Below, piece by piece: positions 268 through 55,602 of a stretch of 64,000 nt of DNA; position 1 is the stretch's first letter, and each line of letters begins with the position of its first letter. The DNA is from Carcharhinus amblyrhynchos (taxonomy: Eukaryota). The translations under genes were made by a program, and so were the position numbers. The stretch covers positions 45,446,001 through 45,510,000 of the forward strand of contig OZ336889.1 in assembly GCA_965287045.1 (NCBI GenBank), written 5' to 3'. The notes below the pieces were generated by a model. That model ran no database searches. It had not been told where the DNA came from and saw only the letters and a program-made list of their open reading frames with translations.

Positions 268-590
268 TTACATACAGCTGGATCTGGAGACGGTTGTTTT
301 AAGTGGGTTTGCTAGAGCCTCGTGTTTGACCAGACAGGAGTAAAACTCGTGTGACTTCCAGTCTAAGGCTGACAGAGTCAGATAACTGCTCACACTGAAC
401 GTGTTGTCCGCCTCCTGCTGGACCCGACTGGTCTCAACCCCATTCCGCCTGACGATGCCATCTATAGTCCATTCAATCTCCGCAGCTCCCGGTTTAAAAC
501 CGCTCACCAAACACACCAGGGTCGCCGTGTTCTTCGCGGTGATTTGATCCGATGAAGGTGGGAGGAGGGAGACAGATGGTTTCTGCGGAC
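268..590 (-). CDS. IGLC: Ig light chain constant exon, cluster 1 (lambda-type CL)
   Basis: C1-set domain PQKPSVSLLPPSSDQITAKNTATLVCLVSGFKPG...W...YSCLVKHEALANPL...SSCM with a penultimate inter-chain Cys. Acceptor tttaaaacAG|GT at 591-592, phase 1, matches the J donor. The N-terminal part of the ORF-track protein is intron. Confidence 0.97.
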
Positions 591-3212: not shown

Positions 3213-3560
3213 TGCCAACGCCCAGCTTGGTTCCGCCTCCGAAGTAGCCCAAGCTGTTTTTCCATATAGCACAGTAATACTCTGCGGTGTCGTCCGATTC
3301 AACTTGACCGATACTTAAAGTTCCCGTGCTGCCGGATACCGAACCTGAAAATCGGTCTGGAACTCCCGGGGCTCTGTTAGTGCTGCCTCCAGCCCAGTGA
3401 TAAAGCAGGTACCGGGGGGCATTTTCAGATTTCTGCTGGTACCAATATATGTTGCTGCTTCCTAAACTGGCGCCAGACAAGGTGCAACTTATTTGGACGG
3501 TTCCTCCGAGAGAAGTAGATTTCGAAGGCGGTTGACTGACTGTAATCGCCGCGTTAGAAA
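3213..3560 (-). CDS. IGLV: Germline-joined VJ exon, cluster 1
   Basis: 348 nt. Acceptor ttttctttcAG at 3561-3562. Translation AITVSQPPS...C TLSGASLGSSNIY WYQQK...YYC AIWKNSLGY FGGGTKLGVG. Donor A|GTGAGT at 3211-3212. V and J are contiguous and in frame, with no RSS. Confidence 0.97.
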
Positions 3561-7448: not shown

Positions 7449-8670
7449 CAGAACAAAGAACAAAAGAACAAAATCAGCCTGGGAAACAGGCCCTTCGGCC
7501 CAACGAGCCCACGCTGCCATCTCAACACCACCTCTCTGCCCATGACCCCTATCTAATGTTTTATGGCCATCCAGATTGAGGGAAAACTGATTTGGGGACA
7601 ATTTATTCCTGCCAATCAGCCTAACAGCACATCTTTGGGGTGTGGGAGGAAACCGGAGCACCCGGAGAAAACCCACGCAAGCACGGGGAGAATGCGCAAA
7701 CTCCCACAGACACTGGCCCAAATCCATGTGTCTGCACAGCAAACAGAGATAGTCACGGAGCTGTCGTCTTGCCCAGTATCTTGTCCAGTTTAAGCACACA
7801 CTAACGACATGAAGCACTGGGCCAATCTCGAACAACCAAAAGCAGCCCCAGTACGACCCATCGCGTGTATGCCCTCGTTGGACACGAGGTGGGCCGACTT
7901 AAAACCTGTGAATGAAAAGAGAAAAACATTATTATCATACTATACCCATTTACATTTCTAGGGACACCTCAATGCTAATAACCCTTATTTAAAGGTTCTC
8001 CTATATCCACCCATCTCCAACTCAGTCATGTGCCTGTCTAAGTTACTCTTAAAGGACTCTAGCGTGTTTGCCTCCACCACCTTACTTGGCAGAGCATTCC
8101 ATGCCCTCACTACCCTCTGTGTGAAAAACCTCCCTCTAATATCTGTGCTGTACCGCTCCCCCCTCACCTTAAGTCCATGGCCCCTTGTCCTACGTGACTC
8201 TATTATAGGAAATAGCTTACCTCTGTTTACTCTATCTATACCCTTCATAATCTTATATACCTCTATTAGATCCCCCCTCAGTCGGCGTCTTTCAAGAGAA
8301 AAGAGCCCCAATTTCTTCAATCTTTCCTCATACCCCAGTCCTTCCATACCAGGCAACATCCTGGTAAACCTCCTCTGCACTCTCTCCAGAGTCTCCACGT
8401 CCTTCTGGTAGTAAGGCGACCGGAACTGTACGCAGTACTCCAAATGCGGCCTAACCAACGTTCTGTCAACTGCAACATTAGACTCCCGCTCTTATATTCT
8501 ATACCCCTTCCTATAAAGGCTAACATACCATAGGCTTTCTTCACCACACTCTCCACTTGCACTGCCACTTTCAAAGACTTGTGCACTTGCACCCCGAGGT
8601 CTCGCTGCGACTCTATACTCCTTACAGGCTTACCCTTTATCATATAATTTCCCCCTACATTATTCCGGCC
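7449..8670 (-). mobile_element. 5'-truncated CR1 LINE with V-SINE domain between ORF2 stop and 3' tail
   Basis: ORF2 end (QRDLGVQVH, RPHLEYCVQF, FFTQRVVRAWNALP, stop at 7985). V-domain at ~7610-7710. CR1 stem ggcccttcggccc and (agaacaa)n tail at 7449-7500. Confidence 0.9.
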
Positions 8671-8893
8671 AGGAGACTTGTTAAGGTATAGGTAGGAGTG
8701 TTGGAGGGAGAGGAAACGCAGCGCCACCGGGGCCCCGCCCCGTCCATTGACGTCTTTTTCTGCATCCCTGCTGGAAGTGAATCTTGCCCACAGGCAAATG
8801 TATCTGAACGGGGTGGCTACTGGCCTGGGTTGGATTGTTGTTGTTGCTGTCTGGATGGGTGAAATGGCTCCATTCTACACTATAGAGGTTCTG

Positions 8894-21892: not shown

Positions 21893-22215
21893 TTACATAC
21901 AGCTGGATCTGGAGACGGTTGTTTTAAGTGGGTTTGCTAGAGCCTCGTGTTTGACCAGACAGGAGTAAAGCTCGTGTGACTTCCAGTCTAAGGCTGACAG
22001 AGTCAGATAACTGCTCACACTGAACGTGTTGTCCGCCTCCTGCTGGACCCGACTGGTCTCAACCCCATTCCGCCTGACGATGCCATCTATAGTCCATTCA
22101 ATCTCCGCAGCTCCCGGTTTAAAACCGCTCACCAAACACACCAGGGTTGCCGTGTTCTTCGCTGTGATTTGATTCGATGAAGGTGGGAGGAGGGAGACAG
22201 ATGGTTTCTGCGGAC
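21893..22215 (-). CDS. IGLC: Ig light chain constant exon, cluster 2
   Basis: Intact C1-set domain. Acceptor aaaccAG|GT at 22216-22217. About 4 nt differences from cluster 1 by eye. Confidence 0.97.
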
Positions 22216-24837: not shown

Positions 24838-25185
24838 TGCCAACGCCCAGCTTGGTTCCGCCTCCGAAGTAGTACATGCTGCTTTTCCATATAGCACAGA
24901 AATACTCTGCGGTGTCCTCCGATTCAACTTGACCGATACTTAAAGTTCCCGTGTTACCGGATACCGAACCTGAAAATCGGTCTGGAACTCCCGGGGCTCT
25001 GATAGTGCTGCTTCCAGCCCAGTGATAAAGCAGGTACCGGGGGGCATTTTCAGATTTCTGCTGGTACCAACTTATGGCAGCGCTTTCTAAACTGGCGCCA
25101 GACAAGGTGCAACTTATTTGGACGGTTCCTCCGAGAGAAGTAGATTTCGAAGGCGGTTGACTAACAGTAATCGCCGCGTTAGAAA
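24838..25185 (-). CDS. IGLV: Germline-joined VJ exon, cluster 2
   Basis: 348 nt. C TLSGASLESAAIS WYQQK...YFC AIWKSSMYY FGGGTKL. Splice sites intact. Confidence 0.97.
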
Positions 25186-25320: not shown

Positions 25321-25369
25321 ATGCCAGGCCAAAAATGAACACAATGATCGCATGGACCCAGTCAGTCAT
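25321..25369 (-). CDS. IGLV: Leader exon, cluster 2
   Basis: MTDWVHAIIVFIFGLA+T|gtgagt, same as cluster 1. Confidence 0.93.
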
Positions 25370-25444: not shown

Positions 25445-25526
25445 TTTTAATAACCCCTGTCGCCAAGAAGGTGTTCCCTTGTGTTGGAAGGCAAATTAGT
25501 CTTTTCATCTCAACCAATCAGATTGG
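25445..25526 (-). promoter_or_regulatory. V promoter, cluster 2, with mutated octamer
   Basis: TATA-like and CCAATCAGATTGG are retained. The octamer position 25489-25496 reads aggcaaat instead of atgcaaat. Confidence 0.8.
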
Positions 25527-29073: not shown

Positions 29074-30282
29074 AGAACAAAGAACAAAAGAACAACATCA
29101 GCCCGGGAAACCTTCGAGCCAACGAGCCCACGCTGCCATCTCAACACCACCTCTCTACCCATGACCCCTATCTAATGCTTTATGGCCATCCAGATTGAGG
29201 GAAAACTGATTTGGGGACAATTTATTCCTGCCAATCAGCCTAACAGCACATCTTTGAGGTGTGGGAGGAAACCGGAGCACCCGGAGAAAACCCACGCAAG
29301 CACGGGGAGAATGCGCAAACTCCCACAGACACCGGCCCAAATCCATGTGTCTGCACAGCAATCAGCGATAGTCACTGAGCTGTCGTCTTGCCCAGTATCT
29401 TGTCCAGTTTAGGCACACACTAACGACATGAAGCACTGGGCCAATCTCGAACAACCAAAAGCAGCCCCAGTACGACCCATCGCGTGTATGCCCCTCGTTG
29501 GACACGAGGTGGACCGACTTAAAACCTGTGAATGAAAAGAGAAAAACATTATTATCATACTATACCCACTTACATTTCTAGGGACACCCCAATGCTAATG
29601 ACCCTTATTTAAAGGTTCTCCTATATCCACCCATCTCCAACTCAGTCATGTGCCTGTCTAAGTTACTCTTAAAGGACTCCAGCGTGTTTGCCTCTACCAC
29701 CTTACTTGGCAGAGCATTCCATACCCCCACTACCCTCTGTGTGAAAAACCTCTCTCTAATATCTGTGTTGTACCGCTCCCCCCTCACCTTAAGTCCATGG
29801 CCCCTTGTCCTACGTGACTCTATTATAGGAAATCTGTTTACTCTATCTATACCCTTCATAATCTTATATATCTCTATTAGATCCCCCCTCAGTCGGCGTC
29901 TGTCAAGGGAAAAGAGCCCCAATTTCTTCAATCTTTCCTCATACCCCAGTCCTTCCATACCAGGCAACATCCTGGTAAACCTCCTCTGCACTCTCTCCAG
30001 AGTCTCCACGTCCTTCTGGTAGTAAGGCGACCGGAACTGTACGCAGTACTCCAAGTGCGGCGTAACCAACGTTCTGTACAACTGCAACATTAGACTCCAG
30101 CTCTCATATTCTATACCCCTTCCTATAAAGGCTAACGTATCATAGGCTTTCTTCACCACACTCTCCACTTGCACTGCCACTTTCAAAGACTTGTGCACTT
30201 GCACCCCGAGGTCTCGCTGCGACTCTATACTCCTTACAGGCTTACCCTTTATCATATAATTTCCCCCTACATTATTCCGGCC
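29074..30282 (-). mobile_element. CR1 LINE with V-domain 3' region, unit 2
   Basis: Paralog of 7449-8670. The ORF2 fragment is open here (29605-30339 in the track), with a 9-nt deletion. Confidence 0.9.
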
Positions 30283-33200
30283 AGGAGACTTGTTAAGGTA
30301 GAGGTAGGAGTGTTGGAGGGAGAGGAAACGCAGCGCCACCGGGGCCCCGCCCCGTCCATTGACGTCTTTTTCTGCATCCCTGCTGGAAGTGAATCTTGCC
30401 CACAGGCAAATGTATCTGAACGGAGTGGCTACTGGCCTGGGTGGGATTGTTGTTGGTGCTGTCTGGATGGGTGAAATGGCTCCATTCTACACTATAGAGG
30501 TTCTGTGGACGGAATTGTGTGGCTGTGCTCTACTCAAAACTGAAAAATACTGCCAGAGGTGAACAGGTCTTTCCATTGCCCACTCCTCAACCACTAGGAT
30601 TCTTGTGGCAGCGGGAAAGGGAAAATTCACCCCCATGATCCTATGACTAAATACTACTTTCACCAACTTGAAACCAATAAAACATTTGTTCAACTTTACA
30701 TATTAACTGATATTCATATTCAATAATTGAAATAAATTTAACGAAATACGGGTTGAGTGAGCAATCTGTATGAACGATATAAAAGAAATAGCAATAAAAA
30801 TGAAATGCAAATACGAACTTTTCTCAGAGCAGGGAGCCCTTTTCTAAGCAAAACTGCCTTTTGGAACCTGTATCTCAAAGGGCATTACTAGGCTGGCCGC
30901 AACATAAGGAAGTGTGGTTCAGGGATGTCTTGCAACACCATGGGCCTGGTCAGGTGACTTTGTTGCGTGTTCGAGCCTGCTGCATACATTGGTAGTATCG
31001 GCGCAGTTGGTCAGGAGACCTAACTGTGCAATTTGTTTCTATTTTGCCTGACCCTACATTGGCCATTGGAATTTATGGGACAAGGAAATTTTGGGCCCTT
31101 ACTTGGTTTGAAAAATTTACCTGAACTTCCAATCAGAGCAGCATCCTCCCGCCTCAAAACCATCTCCTCAGGAACCAGCGCAACACAGGAGAGTCCTCAC
31201 CAGGTCCCCTAATGATGCAGGCAGACTTGGAACGCCCATTAAGGCCCAGTTTGGAATTTGCAATTTTACATTGAAAACGGAAGGATTTCCGTGCTGTTAT
31301 AAAACTATGTTTTTTGGAGGGGTTTATGACCATTTGAGGCTAAATCGATTAAGATAACCTAATTTAGAATGTATAGTGTGCAGAAAAGGTACAAAGTACC
31401 TGGAGTCACCAAGGTACAGTTTGCATAGAAACACATATAACCACTGTTCGAGATTATGAACATGCATTTGTGGATATTCTGTACACCTTGGCCAACTACA
31501 GAGCTGAGTAAAAAGAACCACATTCATTGAAAATACTACAGCCACTAAGTGAAATCGAAAATGACTCTCTAATCAGCGTGGGTCTCAGACAGTTCGGGCT
31601 ATCCCAGACAGCCAAATGAATGGAATAATACAATTTTCCCATAAAAGATTTCCTTAGTAGACAGTGGGAAAGGAACTTTTGAACTCTGTGGACTTATGTA
31701 TGTAGGGCTGTTAGGAGACAATGGGCAAGGGTGCCCGGGCTGTATGGATCTATGTATTTTTATGCTATATGAGGGTTGAATGATACTGGCCGAATAATTC
31801 ATACTAACATGATTGGCTCATCCGGTTCGGATGAACAGAGTAGGCAGGCAGATGATTTCTGAAAAATGTGTAATTGTAATACTGCTAACAATGTAAATAA
31901 GAATAATTTGGGCTTCCACAAATAATTCTCCTACCCATGTTGACCACGCCTGGACAATAAAGAATGTCGTCAACCACAATAAGTGTCTCCGTGAGTCTTC
32001 ATATTTGCTGAGCTGCAATTAATAAAGAGAAACCTCTCAAGTAAAAGCTAGCATAATAAATTGCTCTCTGAAAATGTTGAAGCATTTTTAATGTTTAATT
32101 ATTTTACGTACTTGATGCTGTTGTTAAGAATTAATATTTTAATGTTTGAAAGTGAGCATTATTTAATGTAGAAACAGGTTGGATTAGTTTTCCTAAATTT
32201 GTGAAGGTACTATTTAAATCAGCATTATATTAACATATAACTTTATGTATGGTCCGCATACAAATGTTCATATGTTTTACTTTATAATGTGCTAAGTCTG
32301 AGAAACAATTTCATTCTGCATTATATTATTGTAAAAGTTGTATAAGTGTTCCTGTGTTTTAATTTAGAACATTGAAACTGTACATTTCATTGGGAAACTG
32401 AGATATCAGAGCTTCTCAGACTATGATTTGCATAAGATTGAGCAAAACAGACTTCACGTTTTGGGCCGTGGAAAATCTAAACGTGTTCATCATTGGTATT
32501 CTTCTACCTTGCTCAATTGACTTTTAATTCTCATATTTAATTGTCCGGAGTGTTTTTACAAAGCGTTTGCGTCAAACCAAATTTAAATGTTTTGTTTCGT
32601 TCAATAAAATATGAGTAGAATTTCATGGTTTAATAGAACACATTTATCAACAGAAGTAATATCATAGGTAGAAAACATTGCTATCACATTAATGTTGAAC
32701 TAAAGATTTGACTTCAGTCGCTGCACTGACATGTTTAGTTGCCTCATCTTATCAGGTTTCTTATAAAATTTATGTTTCTATAACAACCGTTAGTGAAATA
32801 TTTCCTGCGCTCACACAACAGTCTGTTGTCTCTAAACAAGGAGGTGAGCAAGGGAAATGAACAGCGGTGGGGAGAGGAAGGAGAGGGAGTGTGAGGGGAG
32901 GGGAAGGGGAGGGGATATGGGGAGAGGTGACATTGGGAGGGTTAAAAGAGAGAGGATAAAAAGGAGTGGTAAAGATGGGGAGGAGGAAATAAGGAGGGGC
33001 AAATGGGGAGGGGGGACACGGGAAAGGTAAAACGGTAGGGGGAACGGTGAGGGAGAAATGAAGAGGTGATTGTGGGGAGGGGAAAATTGGGGAAGAGGAA
33101 AACAGAAGGGGGAAAGGGAGGAGGGCAAAAGGTGGATGGAGAAAACTGGAGTGAGAAAATGGTGAGCAGGAGAAGGAGGGAGCGGGAAAAGTGGGGAGTG

Positions 33201-39200: not shown

Positions 39201-40227
39201 TGAAGTGTAGTCACTGTTGTGATAGGGATCAGGGCAAAAATATCTGTGCACATCTCACTTCCACAAGCAGAAAGATCATCACAGCATAATCATTTCCAGT
39301 GATGTTCATTGAAGGGAAATTGTTTTCCGAATACTTCCATGGATTGATTTCATGGATTTATTTTCTTTAATGGAGTGATACGAACCACGTAGAGGCAAGA
39401 AAATATTAGGTACGAGAGGCATCTGTATCGGCACAGACTTGTTGGGCCGAAGGGCCTGTTCCTGTGCTGTACTGTTCTTTCAATAAAAACCACATCTACA
39501 TGGGGTACAAAAGGGAGACACGGTTTCATGTCTCTTCTGAAGGATGTCATAGTCAATAGAATGGCATGATTAAAGAATGCAATTCTGTCGAAATGTTGTA
39601 AATTCGTTTCAGTGGCCAGGAAACAATGTACCAGGTTTAATTTTCTTTGTCTAATGCCTATGGAATTGGTCAATCTAATTGCGAAATGGCTGTACCGTCA
39701 TTAGTGGAACCTAGACAGAGTTCTTCAGCTGGCACAGGAGATAGAGCAAGTTTGCAGGTTTCAGAACCGTGCTTGGTCAAACGGCGCATTGGCTAACAGG
39801 CTGTGCAATTGAATGTGGATATCTGTGATGAAGCCAAAATCAGCAGCCACAGGCTCAAGCAAAGGATGGATTGAAACCTTGCATTGTTTCTATTAAAGTC
39901 TTGCACTGACAGTTGTTAACCTGGCTTTCGCAAGCTTCTTCATCTCGTGATTGGTCAACGAGGGTCAAGCCGAATAAAAACTAAATTACTTCCTATTCCC
40001 TTCGTCGGTCATCAACACCAGAAAACACTTAACAGCTGGACATAAGAACATAAGAAAGAGGAGCAGGAAGATGGCCTTTTGCCTTTCGAGTCTGTTGTGC
40101 CATTCAGCAAGGTCATGAACAGATCATCTACCTCAAGACCACCTTCCTGCACTACCCCCAAATTCGATAATTAGCTTAACAAGTCAAAATAAATCTCCGG
40201 TTTGAATAAACACAGTGACTGCGATTC

Positions 40228-42038
40228 ATAAGAACATAAGAAATAGGAGCAGGAGTAGGCCATCTAGCCCTTCGAGCCTGCCCCGCCATTCAATAAGATC
40301 ATGGCTGATCTGTCGTGGCTCAGTTCCACATTCCCGCCCTCTCCCCATAACCCTTAATCCCCTCTCTTATCAAAAACCCATCAACCCGCGTCTTAAAAAT
40401 ATTTAGCGAGGTAGCCTCCACCACTTCAACGGGCAGAGAATTCCAGAGATTCACCACCCTTTGAGTGAAGAAGTTCCTCCTCAACTCCGTTCTAAACCGC
40501 CCCCCCCTTTATCTTGAGGCTGTGCCCCCTAGTCCTATTATCCTTTCTGAGCGGGAAGAGTCTCTCCACCTCTATCCTATCCATCCCATTCATCATCTTA
40601 TACGTCTCAATGAGATCTCCCCTCATTCTTCTGAACTCTAACGAGTACAAGCCTATTTTATTCAGCCTCTCCTCATAGCTCAACCCCCTCAACTCCGGCA
40701 TCAGCCTAGTAAACCTCCTCTGCACTCTCTCCAAGGCCAAAATATCCTTGCGTAAATACGGCGCCCAAAACTGCACACAGTACTCCAGCTGCGGCCTCAC
40801 CAATGCCCTGTACAGCCGCAGCAAGACCTCCCTACTTTTATATTCAATCCCCCTCGCTATGAAGGCCAGCATCCCATTCGCCTTCCTGATCACCTGCTGC
40901 ACCTGCAAGCTGGGTTTTTGCGACTCATGCACAAGGACCCCAAGGTCCCTCTACACAGTCGCCTGCTGCAGTTTTTCGCCACGTAAGTGATAATCCTTCC
41001 TACCATTATTCCTACCAAAGTGGACCACCTCGCACTTGCCAACATTAAATTCCATTTGCCATTTCCTGGCCCATTCACCCAGCCTATCTAGATCCTTCAG
41101 TAGACTCTCCACACCCTCCGCACAATTTGCCTTTCCTCCAATCTTGGTGTCATCAGCAAATTTCGACACCCTACACTCGGTTCCCTCCTCCAGATCATCT
41201 ATATAAATGGTAAATAGCTGAGGCCCCAGCACCGACCCCTGAGGCACTCCACTAGTCACCAACCGCCAATCCGAATAGCACCCATTGACTCCCACTGTCT
41301 GCCTCCTATTTGACAACCAATCCTCTATCCACGCTAACACCCTACCCCCAACTCCCTGACCTTCTGCAATAACCTCCTGTGAGGTACCTTGTCAAACGCC
41401 TTCTGAAAACCCAGAAAGACCACATCCACCGGCTCTCCTCTATCCACCGCCCTAGACACCTCCTCATAGAACTCCAGTAAATTTGTCAGACTCGACTTCC
41501 CTTTAACGAAACCGTGCTGCGTCTGCTCTATCAAGCAATTCCTCTCAAGATGCCTCGCTATTTCCTCCCTGATGACGGATTCTAACATTTTACCTACAAC
41601 AGACGTTAAACTAACCGGCCTATAATTCCCTGCCTTTTGCCTGGCACCCTTCTTAAACAACGGCGTAACATTATCCGCTTTCCAATCTTCCGGCACTTCC
41701 CCGGAATCCAGCGACGTCTGGAAAATAACTACCAAGGCATCCACTATCACCTCCGCCATTTCTTTCAGAACCCTCGGATGCATTCCATCCGGTCCTGGGG
41801 ACTTGTCCACAATCAGCCCCTCCAGTCTGTCGAGCACCGCCTCTCTAGTAACAGTAATGTCATTAAGACCCTCCAGTCCTACCACCTTTCCATCTCTAAC
41901 ACCCGGCAAATTATTCACGTCCTCCTCCGTGAAGACAGAGACAAAAAAGTTATTCAGGGCCTCAGCCATATCCCCATCCCCTACCACTAAGTCCCCCTTC
42001 TCATCCTCTAAGGGACCAACGTTCACCCTAGCCAGCCT
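40228..42038 (-). mobile_element. Young ~1.8 kb CR1 insertion private to unit 2 (RT domain)
   Basis: KSPGPDGMHPRVLKE, NYRPVSLTSVVGK, FQKAFDKVPH, GVPQGSVLGP, FADDTK and the C-terminus, with frameshifts. (cataagaa)n tail at 40227. Empty sites at ~19042 and ~62384. Confidence 0.97.
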
Positions 42039-44359
42039 CTCTGTGCGTAGTAATCTGAAATATTATAAATATGCTGCACATTGTGGGGATATAAGTTTTG
42101 GTCCGATGAAAAGACTACTCTTTTAAACGCCGCCAACGCAATAATGACCAATATTTCCTGTTTCCTGTTTTCTGACCATTCACCAATTCAAATTCAGGCT
42201 CATATATTGCACCCAATCCCACCTGCCCGAATTCTATCTCTGAATAGAATAATCTGTATATGTTTAGGTGAAGTTACAAGCTGTACGTAGGAGTCTTGCT
42301 AGTCAAATCTTTCCCCTGACCTCATGAATTACTTGGTCTTCCTTTGTTGAACTCTGAAAACTCCAAAACTCCTATCTTACAACTCTTTTGAATGTACAGT
42401 ATATGGAAATGGGATTACAATAGGTAGGGTGCGTGATGGTCGGTGCAGTCACGGTGGGCCAAAGGGTTTCTTTCTGTGCTGGTAAGTGCTATGACTTTGA
42501 ATATTTCACCCGACTCTGTAACAGTGGTGAAGTTTGTTTCCGGATAAAATTGCGCCTTGTTTACTGAATGATCCTTACTAATCCCTATGAAGTATTAGTT
42601 TTGGCAAATTTTGTTCATCAGTAAGCGATACGCAAATAAGTATTGCATTTGATCTTAGGTCAGTCCATTTATTCATCAGCTTTACTTGGAGATTCTAACA
42701 CTGATCCAAAACTGAAGATACAATGACCATATTGCTTTGATTGATTTGATTTACTGCATTTTAATTAATATTATCGGATGCATAAAGGTAATTGGTAAAG
42801 AGCCTTTCACTATTACGACATCGTATTTCACCAGACTCTGTAACAGCGGTGGGTCTTTTTTCCAGATAATTTTAATGTGTAAATCAGCAGAGAAACAGAG
42901 TGAAGTCAGATACAAGGAGCTTTAAACACGATAACAGAGAGGTTTCTGAGATTTGATGAAAGAGTGTAATAAGTGGAACCCTGAGTGGGGTACAAGATTT
43001 TTGAACCAGTAGACATTAAGGCACTGACAGAACCAGCAGCATTCAGTTAAATGTCTGTTAAAGTAAGTTTATCAGCTAACAAGAAACAATTTGTACATAT
43101 GAGATGTAGCTCCGGATTGAAGCAAATGATTATGATTATAAAACACATATGCTGATATTTTGGATGTATTGTTGTTGATTTTAAGCAATATTGTTCACGT
43201 TAGTCATGCAGCATTTTACAGCAAGGCACCATGATAAAAGTCATTACAGCAAGCCAAATTTCGAGAGAATTTTATGCCTTGGAAACATACAAGTTTCAGC
43301 AGTAAAAGTTTCTGATGGAAGGAACGTATCAACCACTTAATCATACATCATGAATAGGTTTATTCATTGTCTGGACGCGATAGACTGGTGTCCAGGCGTA
43401 GTGTCAAGTTGGTTGGGTGTACAGTGAACTTTAAGGAACCCGTGACAGCGTTCATTTGAACTCTGGGTGAAGTGTCTTCGGTTACCTCGGCAACCAGGAT
43501 GCGGAGACAGCCAAGACGGGAGTTTCTTCCAAATTTCTCGGACTAATTAAATACCATTATGCTGAGGGGTAGAATTTTGTTGGATAATGTATTTGACGTG
43601 GACTACTGTTGATTTGTACATCTTGAAAATAATTGATTTAAACTTACTGAAAGGCTCAAATGATACATAAGGGAAAAAATATGATTGATTTGTTTTTGAT
43701 TGCATATGTTAGATTCATCGGAGAGGTTTTGCTGCTCTACGTCAGAGCTACTTAACTCTTTGACGAACTCCTGGCGACCATTGGTTAAATGAAGTTACGT
43801 CTTTAATACAGAGATACTGGTTTCGTGAGTCTTGCATGGTCTAAAGCTTGGGCAATCCCGGTCACCTCGGTGACCCCACCAACAGGGAGTACGAACAATA
43901 GCTTAGATTCCAAAATTGAGAATAAAAGGTTTCCAATCTCATACGTTACGTAAGGCTGAATAATGCCGGAAAAGTGTTAGATTTGACTTATCTTGAAAAT
44001 AGCACTAAAAGATACGTGAATCGTATTGCATTTGATCTTAATTATTTTATTGGACGGCTTTGTCTAAATGTCTGAAAATAAGTAGACACTTAACATGCAA
44101 TAACCAGATTGTTGCATTTTAATTATGATTATCAGGTACATAAATGTAAATTGATAAACAACAAGGTTTCACTGAACACCGACAATGTTCCGATCGAAGA
44201 CCCTTTTAAAAAAGCAACTGTTAAAACCCGAAGCTCCAGCCGCGGTGGTCATTTTCTTAAATTTCTGAAATACGATCAATTTCTACTCTTTTTGTCACAT
44301 GAAAGCAATGAACAGAATTGAACAATCATTCGCAGCTGAGTCAAGAGCAGTTTCTGAAT

Positions 44360-44682
44360 TTACACACAGCTGGATCTGGAGACGGTTGTTTGAAGCGGGT
44401 TTGCTAGAGTCTCGTGTTTGACCAGACAGGAGTAAAGCTCGTGTGAGTTCCAGTCTGAGGCTGACAGAGTCAGATAACTGCTCACACTGAACGTGTTGTC
44501 CGCCTCCTGCTGGACCCGACTGGTCTCAACCCCATTCCCTCTGACGCTGCCATCTACAGTCCATTGAATCTCCGCAGCTCCCGGTTTAAAACCGCTCACC
44601 AAACACACCAGGGTCGCCGTGTTCTTCGCTGCGATTTGATCCGGTGAAGGTGGGAGGAGGGAGACAGATGGTTGCTGCGGCA
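44360..44682 (-). CDS. IGLC: Ig light chain constant exon, cluster 3
   Basis: PQQPSVSLLPPSPDQIAAKNTATLVC...WTVDGSVRGNGVETS...YSCLVKHETLANPLQTTVSRSSCV. Acceptor aaaccAG|TG at 44683-44684. Confidence 0.97.
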
Positions 44683-47294: not shown

Positions 47295-47642
47295 TGCCAA
47301 CGCTTAGCTTGGTTCCGCCTCCGAAGTTGTACACGTTGTTTTTCCATATAGCACAGTAATACTCTGCGGCGTCCTCCGATTCAACTTGACTGATACTTAA
47401 AGTTCCCGTGTTACCGGATACCGAACCTGAAAACCGGCCTGGAACTCCCAGGGCTCTGCTAGTTCTGCTTCCAACAGAGTGATAAAGCAGATACCGGGGA
47501 GCATTTTCAGATTTCTGCTGGTACCAATATATGTTGCTGCTTCCTAAACTGGCGCCAGACAAGGTGCAACTTATTTGGACGGTTCCTCCGAGAGAAGTAG
47601 ATTTCGAAGGCGGTTGACGGACTGTAATCGCCGCGTTAGAAA
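47295..47642 (-). CDS. IGLV: Germline-joined VJ exon, cluster 3
   Basis: 348 nt. C TLSGASLGSSNIY W...HSVGSRTSRALG...YYC AIWKNNVYN FGGGTKL. Acceptor at 47643-47644, donor at 47293-47294. Confidence 0.97.
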
Positions 47643-54200: not shown

Positions 54201-54790
54201 CTCACCACCATGGCCTACTGGTATGTCCAAGGACAACTGTGAATCCAGCAGAGGAAAATATTTGCAATTATTCATCGGATGAAGTAAACGTTCCTCCTCA
54301 CACACAGTTTAAACATTCAGTTAGTGATATCTCGTTTGCGCATTATAACACTCGAATGAACACTAGCTACTTGAGGGTTAATGATCCCCGCCCCCCTCCC
54401 CCCACAGTTACCGGACAAATTCCCGGTATTCAGTGCGGTCATTCAGGAGGATAACACAGCCCCTGGGCAAACGGTGCCCCCTGACATTCTGGGCAACCGT
54501 TCCTTGTGAAAGCAAATATTGATACATTTTTTGCAGTTACTCGAGACAGCTTTGACCATACTAAAGCAAACGGAAAATCCCACTCTGAGAATAAAAATTA
54601 GACACAACATTTGGTGAGAAGTCAGCACCATCTCGAAACCACGGAAATTTGCCACATCTTCAATGAGGAACAGTTCAAATCACGTGTCCTTTTAACCTAA
54701 GATTTAAATTGTATAACGAACAGCATGGATTCATATACATGCCCAGGCTCAACTTCCAAGGCATTGAATTTCTTACGGCATTCACAACAT

Positions 54791-55602
54791 AAGAACATAA
54801 GAAATAGGAGCAGGAGTAGGCCATCTAGCCCTTCGAGCCTGCCCCGCCATTCAATAAGATCATGGCTGATCTGTCGTGGCTCAGTTCCACATTCCCGCCC
54901 TCTCCCCATAACCCTTAATCCCCTCTCTTATCAAAAACACATCAACCAGCTTCTTGAAAATATTTAGCGAGGCAGCCTCCACCACTTCAACGGGTAGAGA
55001 ATTCCAGAGATTCACCACCCTTTGAGTGAAGAAGTTCCTCCTCAACTCCGTTCTAAAACGCCCCCCCCCCTTTATCTTGAGGCTGTGCCCCCTAGTCCTA
55101 CTGTCTCTTTTGAGCGGGAAAAGTCTCTCCACCTCTATCCTATCCATCCCATTCATCATCTTATACGTCTCAATGAGATCTCCCCTCATTCTTCTAAACT
55201 CCAACGAGTACAAGCCTAGTTTATTCAGCCTCTCCTCATAGCTCAACCCCCTCAACTCCGGTATCAGCCTAGTAAACCTCCTCTGCACTCCCTCCAAGGC
55301 CAAAATATCTTTGCGCAGGTGCGGCGCCCAAAACTGCACACAGTACTCCAGCTGCGGCCTCACCAATGCCCTATACAGCTGCAGCAAGACCTCCCTACTT
55401 TTACATTCAATCCCCTTCGCTATGAAGGCCAGCATCCCATTGGCCTTCCTGACCACCTGCTGCACCTGCAGGCTGGGTTTTTGCGACTCATGCACAAGGA
55501 CCCCGAGGTCCCTCTGCACCGTCGCCTGCTGCAGTTTTTCGCCCCTTCAACGGGCAGAGAATTCCAGAGATTCACCACCCTTTGAGTGAAGAAGTTCCTC
55601 CT
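54791..55602 (-). mobile_element. Young CR1 insertion private to unit 3
   Basis: Open 212-aa ORF2 C-terminus, (cataagaa)n tail, cat at both junctions. Empty sites at ~13682 and ~34868. Confidence 0.96.

What the first reader, a model, noticed from the sequence alone, without database searches (positions are those of the whole stretch)
25071..25086. Hypermutation-like contiguous substitutions in the CDRs of germline paralogs
Seen: clusters 1 and 2 have about 4 differences in the 323-nt C exon and identical leaders, but about 20 differences in the 348-nt VJ exon, about 14 of them in CDRs. CDR1 changes from GGA AGC AGC AAC ATA TAT to GAA AGC GCT GCC ATA AGT: 8 changes in 16 nt, including a 5-nt and a 2-nt contiguous run over AGCA (WRCH) hotspots. 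Tandem changes also occur in CDR3 (TAC vs GGC) and CDR2 (TGG vs TCT). Established: shark Ig somatic hypermutation characteristically yields contiguous substitutions. Inference: AID-type mutagenesis or micro gene conversion has acted on these genes in the germline (with or without diversifying selection), replacing junctional diversity. This is the best candidate for an undescribed mechanism in the window.
Basis: partly seen in the sequence, partly recalled or inferred. Interest (0 to 1): 0.85.

Follow-up and report, generated by a model that had tools for sequence, protein, structure and literature searches.

The report
Selected CDR changes in shark antibodies
Duplicated shark antibody light-chain genes differ mostly in their antigen-binding loops, often at neighbouring bases, but this likely reflects ordinary selection and shuffling between copies rather than the antibody mutator enzyme AID acting in the germline.

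Summary
Copies C1 and C2 of a six-copy germline-joined lambda VJ-C family differ at 20 of 348 VJ bases, 14 in CDRs, with a 5-nt and a 2-nt run in CDR1; flanks differ at 2.0%. The tandem excess is confined to CDRs (6 of 10 private CDR changes against 6 of 259 elsewhere). The AID reading fails most tests. Introns beside the VJ exon show no extra mutation, tandems or WRCH bias; 0 of 33 WRCH bases changed in these CDRs; all 10 private changes alter residues. The 5-nt run is not one block: three bases are shared with paralog A, and a related organism's contig has codons one step from both C2 codons. The copies are mosaics. Rearranging kappa and IgH V genes show the same pattern. No donor tract lies in the assembly. 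Best reading (0.66): diversifying selection on CDR codons plus exchange between copies, with a few ordinary multi-base mutations fixed. Left open: three Tyr-codon doubles without a sampled DNA intermediate, and a weak WRCH excess in V exons that loses significance when counted per site. Germline AID about 0.07.

The parts
25071..25086 (-). CDR1 of copy C2: 8 base changes in four codons (G>E, S>A, N>A, Y>S), GSSNIY to ESAAIS
25079..25081 (-). First three bases of the 5-nt run (Ala codon GCT), shared with paralog A outside the window; run X4 has ACT here, paralog F and run X10 have ACC
25077..25078 (-). Last two bases of the 5-nt run (AAC to GCC), private to C2 in this assembly; run X4 has the one-step codon ACC
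25071..25072 (-). 2-nt run (TAT to AGT), private to C2; no intermediate seen in any copy or contig
24838..25185 (-). Germline-joined lambda VJ exon of C2 (348 nt, open frame, V-set domain)
25321..25369 (-). Leader exon of C2
   Evidence: sequence
25489..25496 (-). Promoter octamer site of C2 with one changed base at 25490 relative to the other five copies (octamer identity recalled)
21893..22215 (-). C exon of C2 (C1-set domain)
3213..3560 (-). VJ exon of copy C1; ancestral CDR1 at 3446-3461; private TAC to GGC double in CDR3 at 3248-3249
268..590 (-). C exon of C1
47295..47642 (-). VJ exon of copy C3 (older copy, flanks about 89% alike); TCT codon of CDR2 at 47476-47478
44360..44682 (-). C exon of C3

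Best explanation
The contiguous differences are likely the product of diversifying selection on a few CDR codons of tandemly duplicated, germline-joined lambda genes that exchange sequence, not of a germline mutator. Shown: the copies are mosaics, CDR changes alter residues, neutral DNA beside the exon mutates at the background rate, and the 5-nt run splits into parts carried by different copies. Inferred: conversion or unequal crossing-over keeps flanks and framework about 98% alike while selection keeps and adds CDR differences, so successive single changes stack up in the same and adjacent codons. Also inferred: a few doubles from Tyr codons, whose one-step routes mostly pass through Cys or a stop, were fixed either as ordinary multi-base mutations or as quick two-step changes.
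For: All 10 changes private to B, C1 or C2 in CDRs are non-synonymous, at 46 per kb against 5-7 per kb in framework, introns and flanks. Codon models give omega 6.5-7.8 at variable CDR codons of this family and up to about 11 in the 24-sequence second lambda family, where the neutral scale is alike in CDR (0.46-0.70) and framework (0.50). Pooled over three families, non-synonymous CDR/framework ratio 6.3, synonymous 1.5 (P = 0.07). Mosaicism: 150 informative sites among A, B, C1, C2 fall in 27 runs against 78.7 in permutations, P about 1e-4. Observed one-step chains: AGC, ACC (F, X10), ACT (X4), GCT (A, C2); and AAC, ACC (X4), GCC (C2). The share of codon links that need two or more steps falls as more copies are sampled: 0.23 to 0.09 in the second lambda family, 0.24 to 0.11 in IgH, 0.29 to 0.15 in kappa; this family has 0.27 at six copies. 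In the two larger light-chain families the adjacent 2+3 double rate is no higher than the non-adjacent 1+3 rate (0.13 vs 0.22; 0.10 vs 0.41). Other sharks vary at the same CDR1 residues (GSTTIY, GSATIH, GRATIY, GGATIR), and two carry Cys at the CDR3 codon where C1 has Gly. Single-hit simulations with strongly episodic selection reach the observed statistic in 16 of 104 runs.
Against: In this family adjacent doubles are significant (LRT 10.1 on the exon tree, 9.2 on local trees) while the non-adjacent rate is 0. Single-hit simulations reach that value in 0 of 73 runs with constant omega, 2 of 94 with moderate episodic omega, and 0 of 24 and 0 of 23 in a first set. Three of seven private CDR events are doubles, against about 1% tandem events in other species (bioRxiv 10.1101/165969). 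TAT>AGT, TAT>TGG and TAC>GGC have no sampled DNA intermediate. CDR3 of the second lambda family also favours adjacent doubles (0.30 vs 0). Event counts show a WRCH excess in V exons of four Ig families (2.5-fold, P = 0.002). A study in primates and yeasts found no general positive selection on codon doubles (abstract, PMC9500374). The X4 codons could be convergent or reverted rather than ancestral.
Confidence: 0.66

Rival explanations
1. Short-tract gene conversion brought the C2 CDR1, whole or in part, from an older divergent copy that is absent from this assembly (other haplotype, copy-number variant or lost copy). An old S/R-A/T-T type of CDR1 may persist across shark lineages.
For: Exchange between copies is shown: B joins a C1-like 5' half to a C2-like CDR3. 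X4 shares three derived bases with C2 in these two codons, one of them synonymous. Bamboo-shark and Mustelus proteins carry SAT, RAT, GAT and STT at these residues.
Against: No donor: the 21-mer occurs only in C2 at up to 1 mismatch, the 101-nt CDR1 region matches only the six copies, and the longest exact match in 406 kb of other Ig-family loci is 9-11 nt. The DNA of the other sharks' genes could not be read, so shared ancestry of their codons is untested.
Confidence: 0.16
2. AID and error-prone repair act on these genes in germ cells (or somatically mutated copies return to the germline), giving shark-type tandem substitutions that selection then filters.
For: CDR-only tandem excess, 6 of 10 vs 6 of 259 (P = 4e-7); adjacent-double LRT 9-10; 9 of 10 private CDR changes are at A:T, and shark tandem mutations lean to A:T (Table 1 of PMC4588147). 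Event-level WRCH excess in Ig V exons: synonymous transitions 2.46 (P = 0.0018), framework replacements 2.28 (P = 0.0016), repeated in IgH, against 1.17 and 0.66 in small controls (its C-exon control was misaligned and was redone). At residue-invariant codons 8 of 22 vs 12 of 76 sites, P = 0.067. RAG already acts in shark germ cells (passages, PMC2193156).
Against: Introns beside VJ: 20 private changes in 2,981 site-copies, none in runs, rate equal to distal DNA (P = 0.63). Second lambda family: introns 7-10% in runs against 7% distally, WRCH ratio 1.0-1.06; tree-based 1.14-1.19, not significant. Shark hypermutation has 38% of framework and 51% of CDR mutated bases in tandem and 4.3-fold WRCH bias (PMC5931798), and 338 tandem vs 293 single in light chains. 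Framework double rate is 0, and 0.25 is rejected (log-likelihood drop 5.2). In this family's CDRs 0 of 33 WRCH site-copies changed and 0 of 10 WRCH synonymous sites vary. Counted per site the V-exon excess is 1.54 (15 of 58 vs 20 of 119, P = 0.16), the same as controls at 1.58. The A:T lean follows from Asn, Tyr and Ser codons.
Confidence: 0.07
3. Local template switching or slippage, independent of AID, produced the runs as single events from nearby sequence.
For: TAT>AGT creates an 8-nt copy of framework sequence 39 nt upstream; AGC>GCT creates a 6-nt palindrome (sequence).
Against: The 8-nt match has P about 0.07 among alternative doubles, and 5 of the 33 tandem events tested reach P <= 0.07, four of them in non-coding flanks; the other C2 double has only a 5-nt match.
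Confidence: 0.06
4. The C2 CDR1 is an assembly error or came from B-cell DNA.
For: None of the contigs listed for six runs (X1, X2, X3, X4, X6, X10) carries C2's CDR1.
Against: The frame is open, three bases are shared with paralog A and three with X4, and the rest of C2's VJ and introns shows no hypermutation. Contigs drop variants: X2 gives one CDR1 contig for six copies.
Confidence: 0.04

Closest known systems
Germline-joined lambda (type II, NS3) VJ-C clusters of cartilaginous fishes
   Same: [quoted passage not shown]
   Different: Nothing in kind. This is a small six-copy subfamily about 0.75 Mb from a family of about 31 copies on the same contig.
Germline-joined type I light chains of the skate Raja (Anderson et al. 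1995, PMC2192082)
   Same: Differences between germline-joined genes concentrate in CDRs and replacements exceed neutral changes (abstract passage).
   Different: Other isotype; the held text does not treat tandem changes or conversion.
Peak of divergence under gene conversion (opsins, MHC, Ig; review PMC3924837)
   Same: High divergence at selected sites with homogenised flanks, and new haplotypes by conversion (passages).
   Different: Here the peak is three short loops with almost no raised synonymous divergence, and no preserved donor was found.
Shark somatic hypermutation with tandem substitutions (Lee et al. 2002; Ott et al. 2018, PMC5931798)
   Same: Runs of 2-5 changed bases in CDRs that contain AGC motifs; many changes at A:T.
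   Different: Somatic hypermutation puts tandems in framework too (38%) and favours WRCH 4.3-fold. Neither is seen in this family's framework, introns or CDR hotspots. Lee 2002 itself was not held; its numbers come from Table 1 of PMC4588147.
Ordinary multinucleotide mutations (Venkat et al., bioRxiv 10.1101/165969)
   Same: About 1% of events are tandem and nearly always non-synonymous (passages); flanks here show 3 adjacent pairs among 231 private changes.
   Different: CDR doubles here are 3 of 7 events, so strong selection or two-step paths are needed on top.

Membership tests
Germline-joined lambda VJ-C clusters | V and J fused in one open exon | tested here: met
Germline-joined lambda VJ-C clusters | One C1-set exon per cluster, clusters in tandem | tested here: met
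Germline-joined lambda VJ-C clusters | Sequence closest to elasmobranch lambda chains | tested here: met
Germline-joined lambda VJ-C clusters | Expressed in B cells | not testable with these tools
   no RNA run on record among the holders
AID-type shark hypermutation | About 40-55% of mutated bases in tandem, also outside CDRs | tested here: not met
   framework double rate 0 in both lambda families; introns 0 of 20 and 7-10%; met only inside CDRs
AID-type shark hypermutation | Bias to C/G in WRCH/DGYW motifs | tested here: inconclusive
   absent in this family's CDRs and in introns; 2.3-2.5-fold in V exons by event count, 1.5-fold and not significant per site
AID-type shark hypermutation | Raised mutation across the transcribed V window, introns included (extent recalled; Zhu and Hsu 2010 not held) | tested here: not met
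AID-type shark hypermutation | Runs arise as single events without intermediates | tested here: inconclusive
   not met for the 5-nt run; three Tyr-codon doubles lack a sampled intermediate
AID-type shark hypermutation | AID active in the cells that pass on the change (germ cells) | not testable with these tools
   needs germ-cell expression data
Diversifying selection with paralog exchange | dN above dS at CDR codons, neutral rate like framework | tested here: met
Diversifying selection with paralog exchange | Mosaic ancestry along the repeat unit | tested here: met
Diversifying selection with paralog exchange | CDR variants older than flank divergence (shared across species) | tested here: inconclusive
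   F-type CDR1 residues in X10, X4 sharing bases with C2, like residues in other sharks; DNA of those genes not read
Templated micro-conversion from a donor | A donor carrying the tract exists | tested here: not met
   one assembly only

The most novel reading that the evidence does not exclude
AID-initiated, shark-type tandem mutagenesis reaches Ig V exons in the germline (in germ cells that already rearrange Ig genes, or by return of mutated copies) at a low rate, and selection keeps its products in CDRs; the CDR-only doubles and the weak WRCH excess in four V families are its trace.
Probability: 0.07. Interest if true: 0.85.

Novelty: new member of a known kind. Interest (0 to 1): 0.22.

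Why it matters
As read here it is a clear example of a known process: pre-joined shark light-chain genes gain inherited CDR variety by selection and exchange between copies. It also shows that runs of differences between germline V genes can imitate hypermutation. If the minority reading were true, an enzyme of adaptive immunity would be writing heritable variation, which bears on the old soma-to-germline question; complete shark Ig arrays now make that testable with population data.

Tried and rejected
Donor search in the own genome: none. Local-template origin: not above chance. Link to germline joining: rejected, because unjoined kappa and IgH V genes with recombination signals behave alike. 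Public runs: no RNA holder listed, which says nothing on expression; all laid runs were contigs, so the absence of C2's CDR1 is not evidence. The first adjacency test on non-coding alignments was swamped by alignment noise and shared ancestry and was replaced. One upstream, untranscribed block gave a WRCH ratio of 3.0 (17 of 319 vs 26 of 1,482) but 0.8-1.3; unexplained, not pursued. The C12 control family was first taken for NKp30 from memory; searches did not confirm that name, so it is an unnamed non-rearranging V-domain family and a weak control. Papers not held: Lee 2002, Zhu and Hsu 2010, Criscitiello and Flajnik 2007. Searches for germline AID action on shark V genes found no paper (none; one unrelated); the library lacks most subscription journals. 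Earlier scan findings: none. No supplementary files were opened.

Full report
Setting. The window holds three tandem units of about 21.6-22.5 kb, each with a leader, a fused VJ exon and one C exon on the minus strand. The closest named proteins are lambda-1-like light chains of sharks and rays. The own genome has six close copies: A and B before the window, C1, C2 and C3 in it, F after it. The same contig holds a second germline-joined family of about 31 copies; unjoined kappa and IgH V genes and a non-rearranging V-domain family lie elsewhere. I used these as comparison sets: 24 distinct second-family exons (26 of the 31 aligned, five from another subclade left out, two duplicates merged), 33 distinct of 40 fetched kappa exons, 17 distinct of 20 fetched IgH exons (15, after dropping a divergent subfamily), and 20 exons of the non-rearranging family. 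The IgH and non-rearranging sets are only part of what one search listed.

Observation. C1 and C2 differ at 20 of 348 VJ bases, 14 in CDRs, at 0 of 49 leader and 4 of 323 C bases; non-coding flanks differ at 276 of 13,915 sites and framework at 6 of 258. The CDR1 runs are as described. C2 is the derived copy. Among changes private to B, C1 or C2, 6 of 10 in CDRs lie in runs against 6 of 259 elsewhere (P = 4e-7).

The 5-nt run comes apart. Paralog A shares its first three bases, along with C2's framework-1 and intron variants, but not the last two. One contig of run X4 (depth 30, six differences) reads GTTTIY, with ACT and ACC where C2 has GCT and GCC; F and a contig of X10 have ACC at the first of these codons (codons read by hand from the difference table). 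Each step of AGC, ACC, ACT, GCT and of AAC, ACC, GCC is therefore a single change between observed states. That these states are true ancestors is inferred. The 2-nt run and two other doubles from Tyr codons have no sampled DNA intermediate, although two sharks carry Cys at the CDR3 position. In larger families the share of multi-step codon links shrinks with sampling (0.23 to 0.09; 0.24 to 0.11; 0.29 to 0.15), and this family's 0.27 at six copies is at or just above what the others give at six; the non-rearranging family stays at 0.28.

Selection and exchange. All 10 private CDR changes alter residues. My codon models give omega near 7 at variable CDR codons here and a neutral scale that is alike in CDR and framework in the second family. 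Informative sites among A, B, C1 and C2 form long blocks of alternating ancestry (27 runs against 78.7). This is the setting in which a peak of divergence at selected sites is expected (passages of PMC3924837). CDR-focused replacement among germline-joined genes was reported in the skate in 1995 (abstract passage of PMC2192082).

Tests of the AID reading. Shark hypermutation leaves 38% of framework and 51% of CDR mutations in tandem with a 4.3-fold WRCH bias (passages of PMC5931798; light-chain counts in Table 1 of PMC4588147). That it also covers the introns near V is recalled. Here the introns beside VJ have 20 private changes in 2,981 site-copies, none in runs, at the distal rate. In the second family they have 7-10% in runs against 7% distally, and a WRCH ratio of about 1. 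The framework double rate is 0 in both lambda families; kappa framework has some doubles, more non-adjacent than adjacent. No WRCH base changed privately in this family's CDRs (0 of 33). In the two larger light-chain families adjacent 2+3 doubles are no commoner than non-adjacent 1+3 doubles, which points to stacked changes rather than tandem mutation.

Results against my reading. In this family adjacent doubles are significant (LRT 9.2-10.1, from five codons) and non-adjacent ones absent, though the contrast between the two is not significant (LRT 2.1-3.3). Single-hit simulations match the value only when selection is strongly episodic (0 of 73, 2 of 94, 16 of 104). Parsimony event counts show 2.3-2.5-fold more change at WRCH bases in V exons of four Ig families (P about 0.002; first seen). 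Such counts repeat sites when the tree is wrong, and per site the ratio is 1.54 (P = 0.16) against 1.58 in controls, with P = 0.067 at residue-invariant codons. An abstract reports no general selection on codon doubles in primates and yeasts (PMC9500374). These points keep germline AID alive at a low probability.

Donors, templates, artefacts. No donor was found in the assembly. An 8-nt local match for the 2-nt run is not beyond chance; human tandem hypermutation is mostly one-base shifts of adjacent sequence (abstract and passages of PMC8781386), which the TAT>AGT and AAC>GCC changes are not, by inspection. No listed contig carries C2's CDR1, but contigs collapse copies, so a raw-read check remains open.

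Literature seen. Passages: PMC2192082, PMC5931798, PMC2193156, bioRxiv 10.1101/165969, PMC8781386, PMC4279169, PMC3924837, PMC4588147, PMC12227049. Abstract only: PMC9500374, PMC7204545. Search listing only: soma-to-germline papers such as PMC12941027 and PMC5704389. Recalled, not held: Lee 2002, Zhu and Hsu 2010. Searches that found no report of germline AID on shark V genes. No supplements were read; sequence tables in them could hold intermediates.

Verdict. A real CDR-limited cluster of adjacent changes in a known kind of gene, best explained by diversifying selection with exchange between copies (0.66), then conversion from an unsampled donor (0.16). Germline AID stands at about 0.07. Interest 0.22.

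Noticed in passing
window 25489-25496, minus strand: C2's promoter octamer has one changed base (25490) relative to the other five copies, which may lower its transcription. Runs X1 and X3 have some depth without the common base at this place.
   Followed up: partly
G000:C20:45414216-45458406 (copies B and C1): B and C1 are 98.9% alike over 21.7 kb, yet B carries C2's CDR3 and framework-3 variants: a conversion tract of about 1 kb over the 3' half of VJ.
   Followed up: yes
L057, L061, L066 (second lambda family): A CDR2-framework-3 block (STRGPG) is shared by copies from different subclades, which looks like a conversion tract.
   Followed up: no
this family, L054-L086 and L131-L150: Tyr-to-Trp codon doubles recur without intermediates in both lambda families and twice in IgH; their one-step routes are Cys or a stop.
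   Followed up: partly
L151-L170 (G000:C12, 88.7-90.5 Mb): A large array of single-exon VJ-type domains, often in tandem within a locus, whose relatives are unnamed multi-V-domain proteins of sharks and rays. Not identified.
   Followed up: partly
L070, L078, L081: Second-family copies with in-frame stops (L070 in V; L078 and L081 in C).
   Followed up: no
G000:C20:45343994-45382978 (L029-L031, L088): Three more divergent joined VJ genes (49-60% protein identity to C2), one inverted, flank the six-copy array.
   Followed up: no
L091-L130: Kappa V genes are followed directly by a tandem repeat of about 60 nt behind the recombination signal.
   Followed up: no
window 40227-42270, 54788-55590, 7985-8874, 29605-30486: Broken reverse-transcriptase (LINE-like) fragments lie between the clusters (identity from recall).
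   Followed up: no
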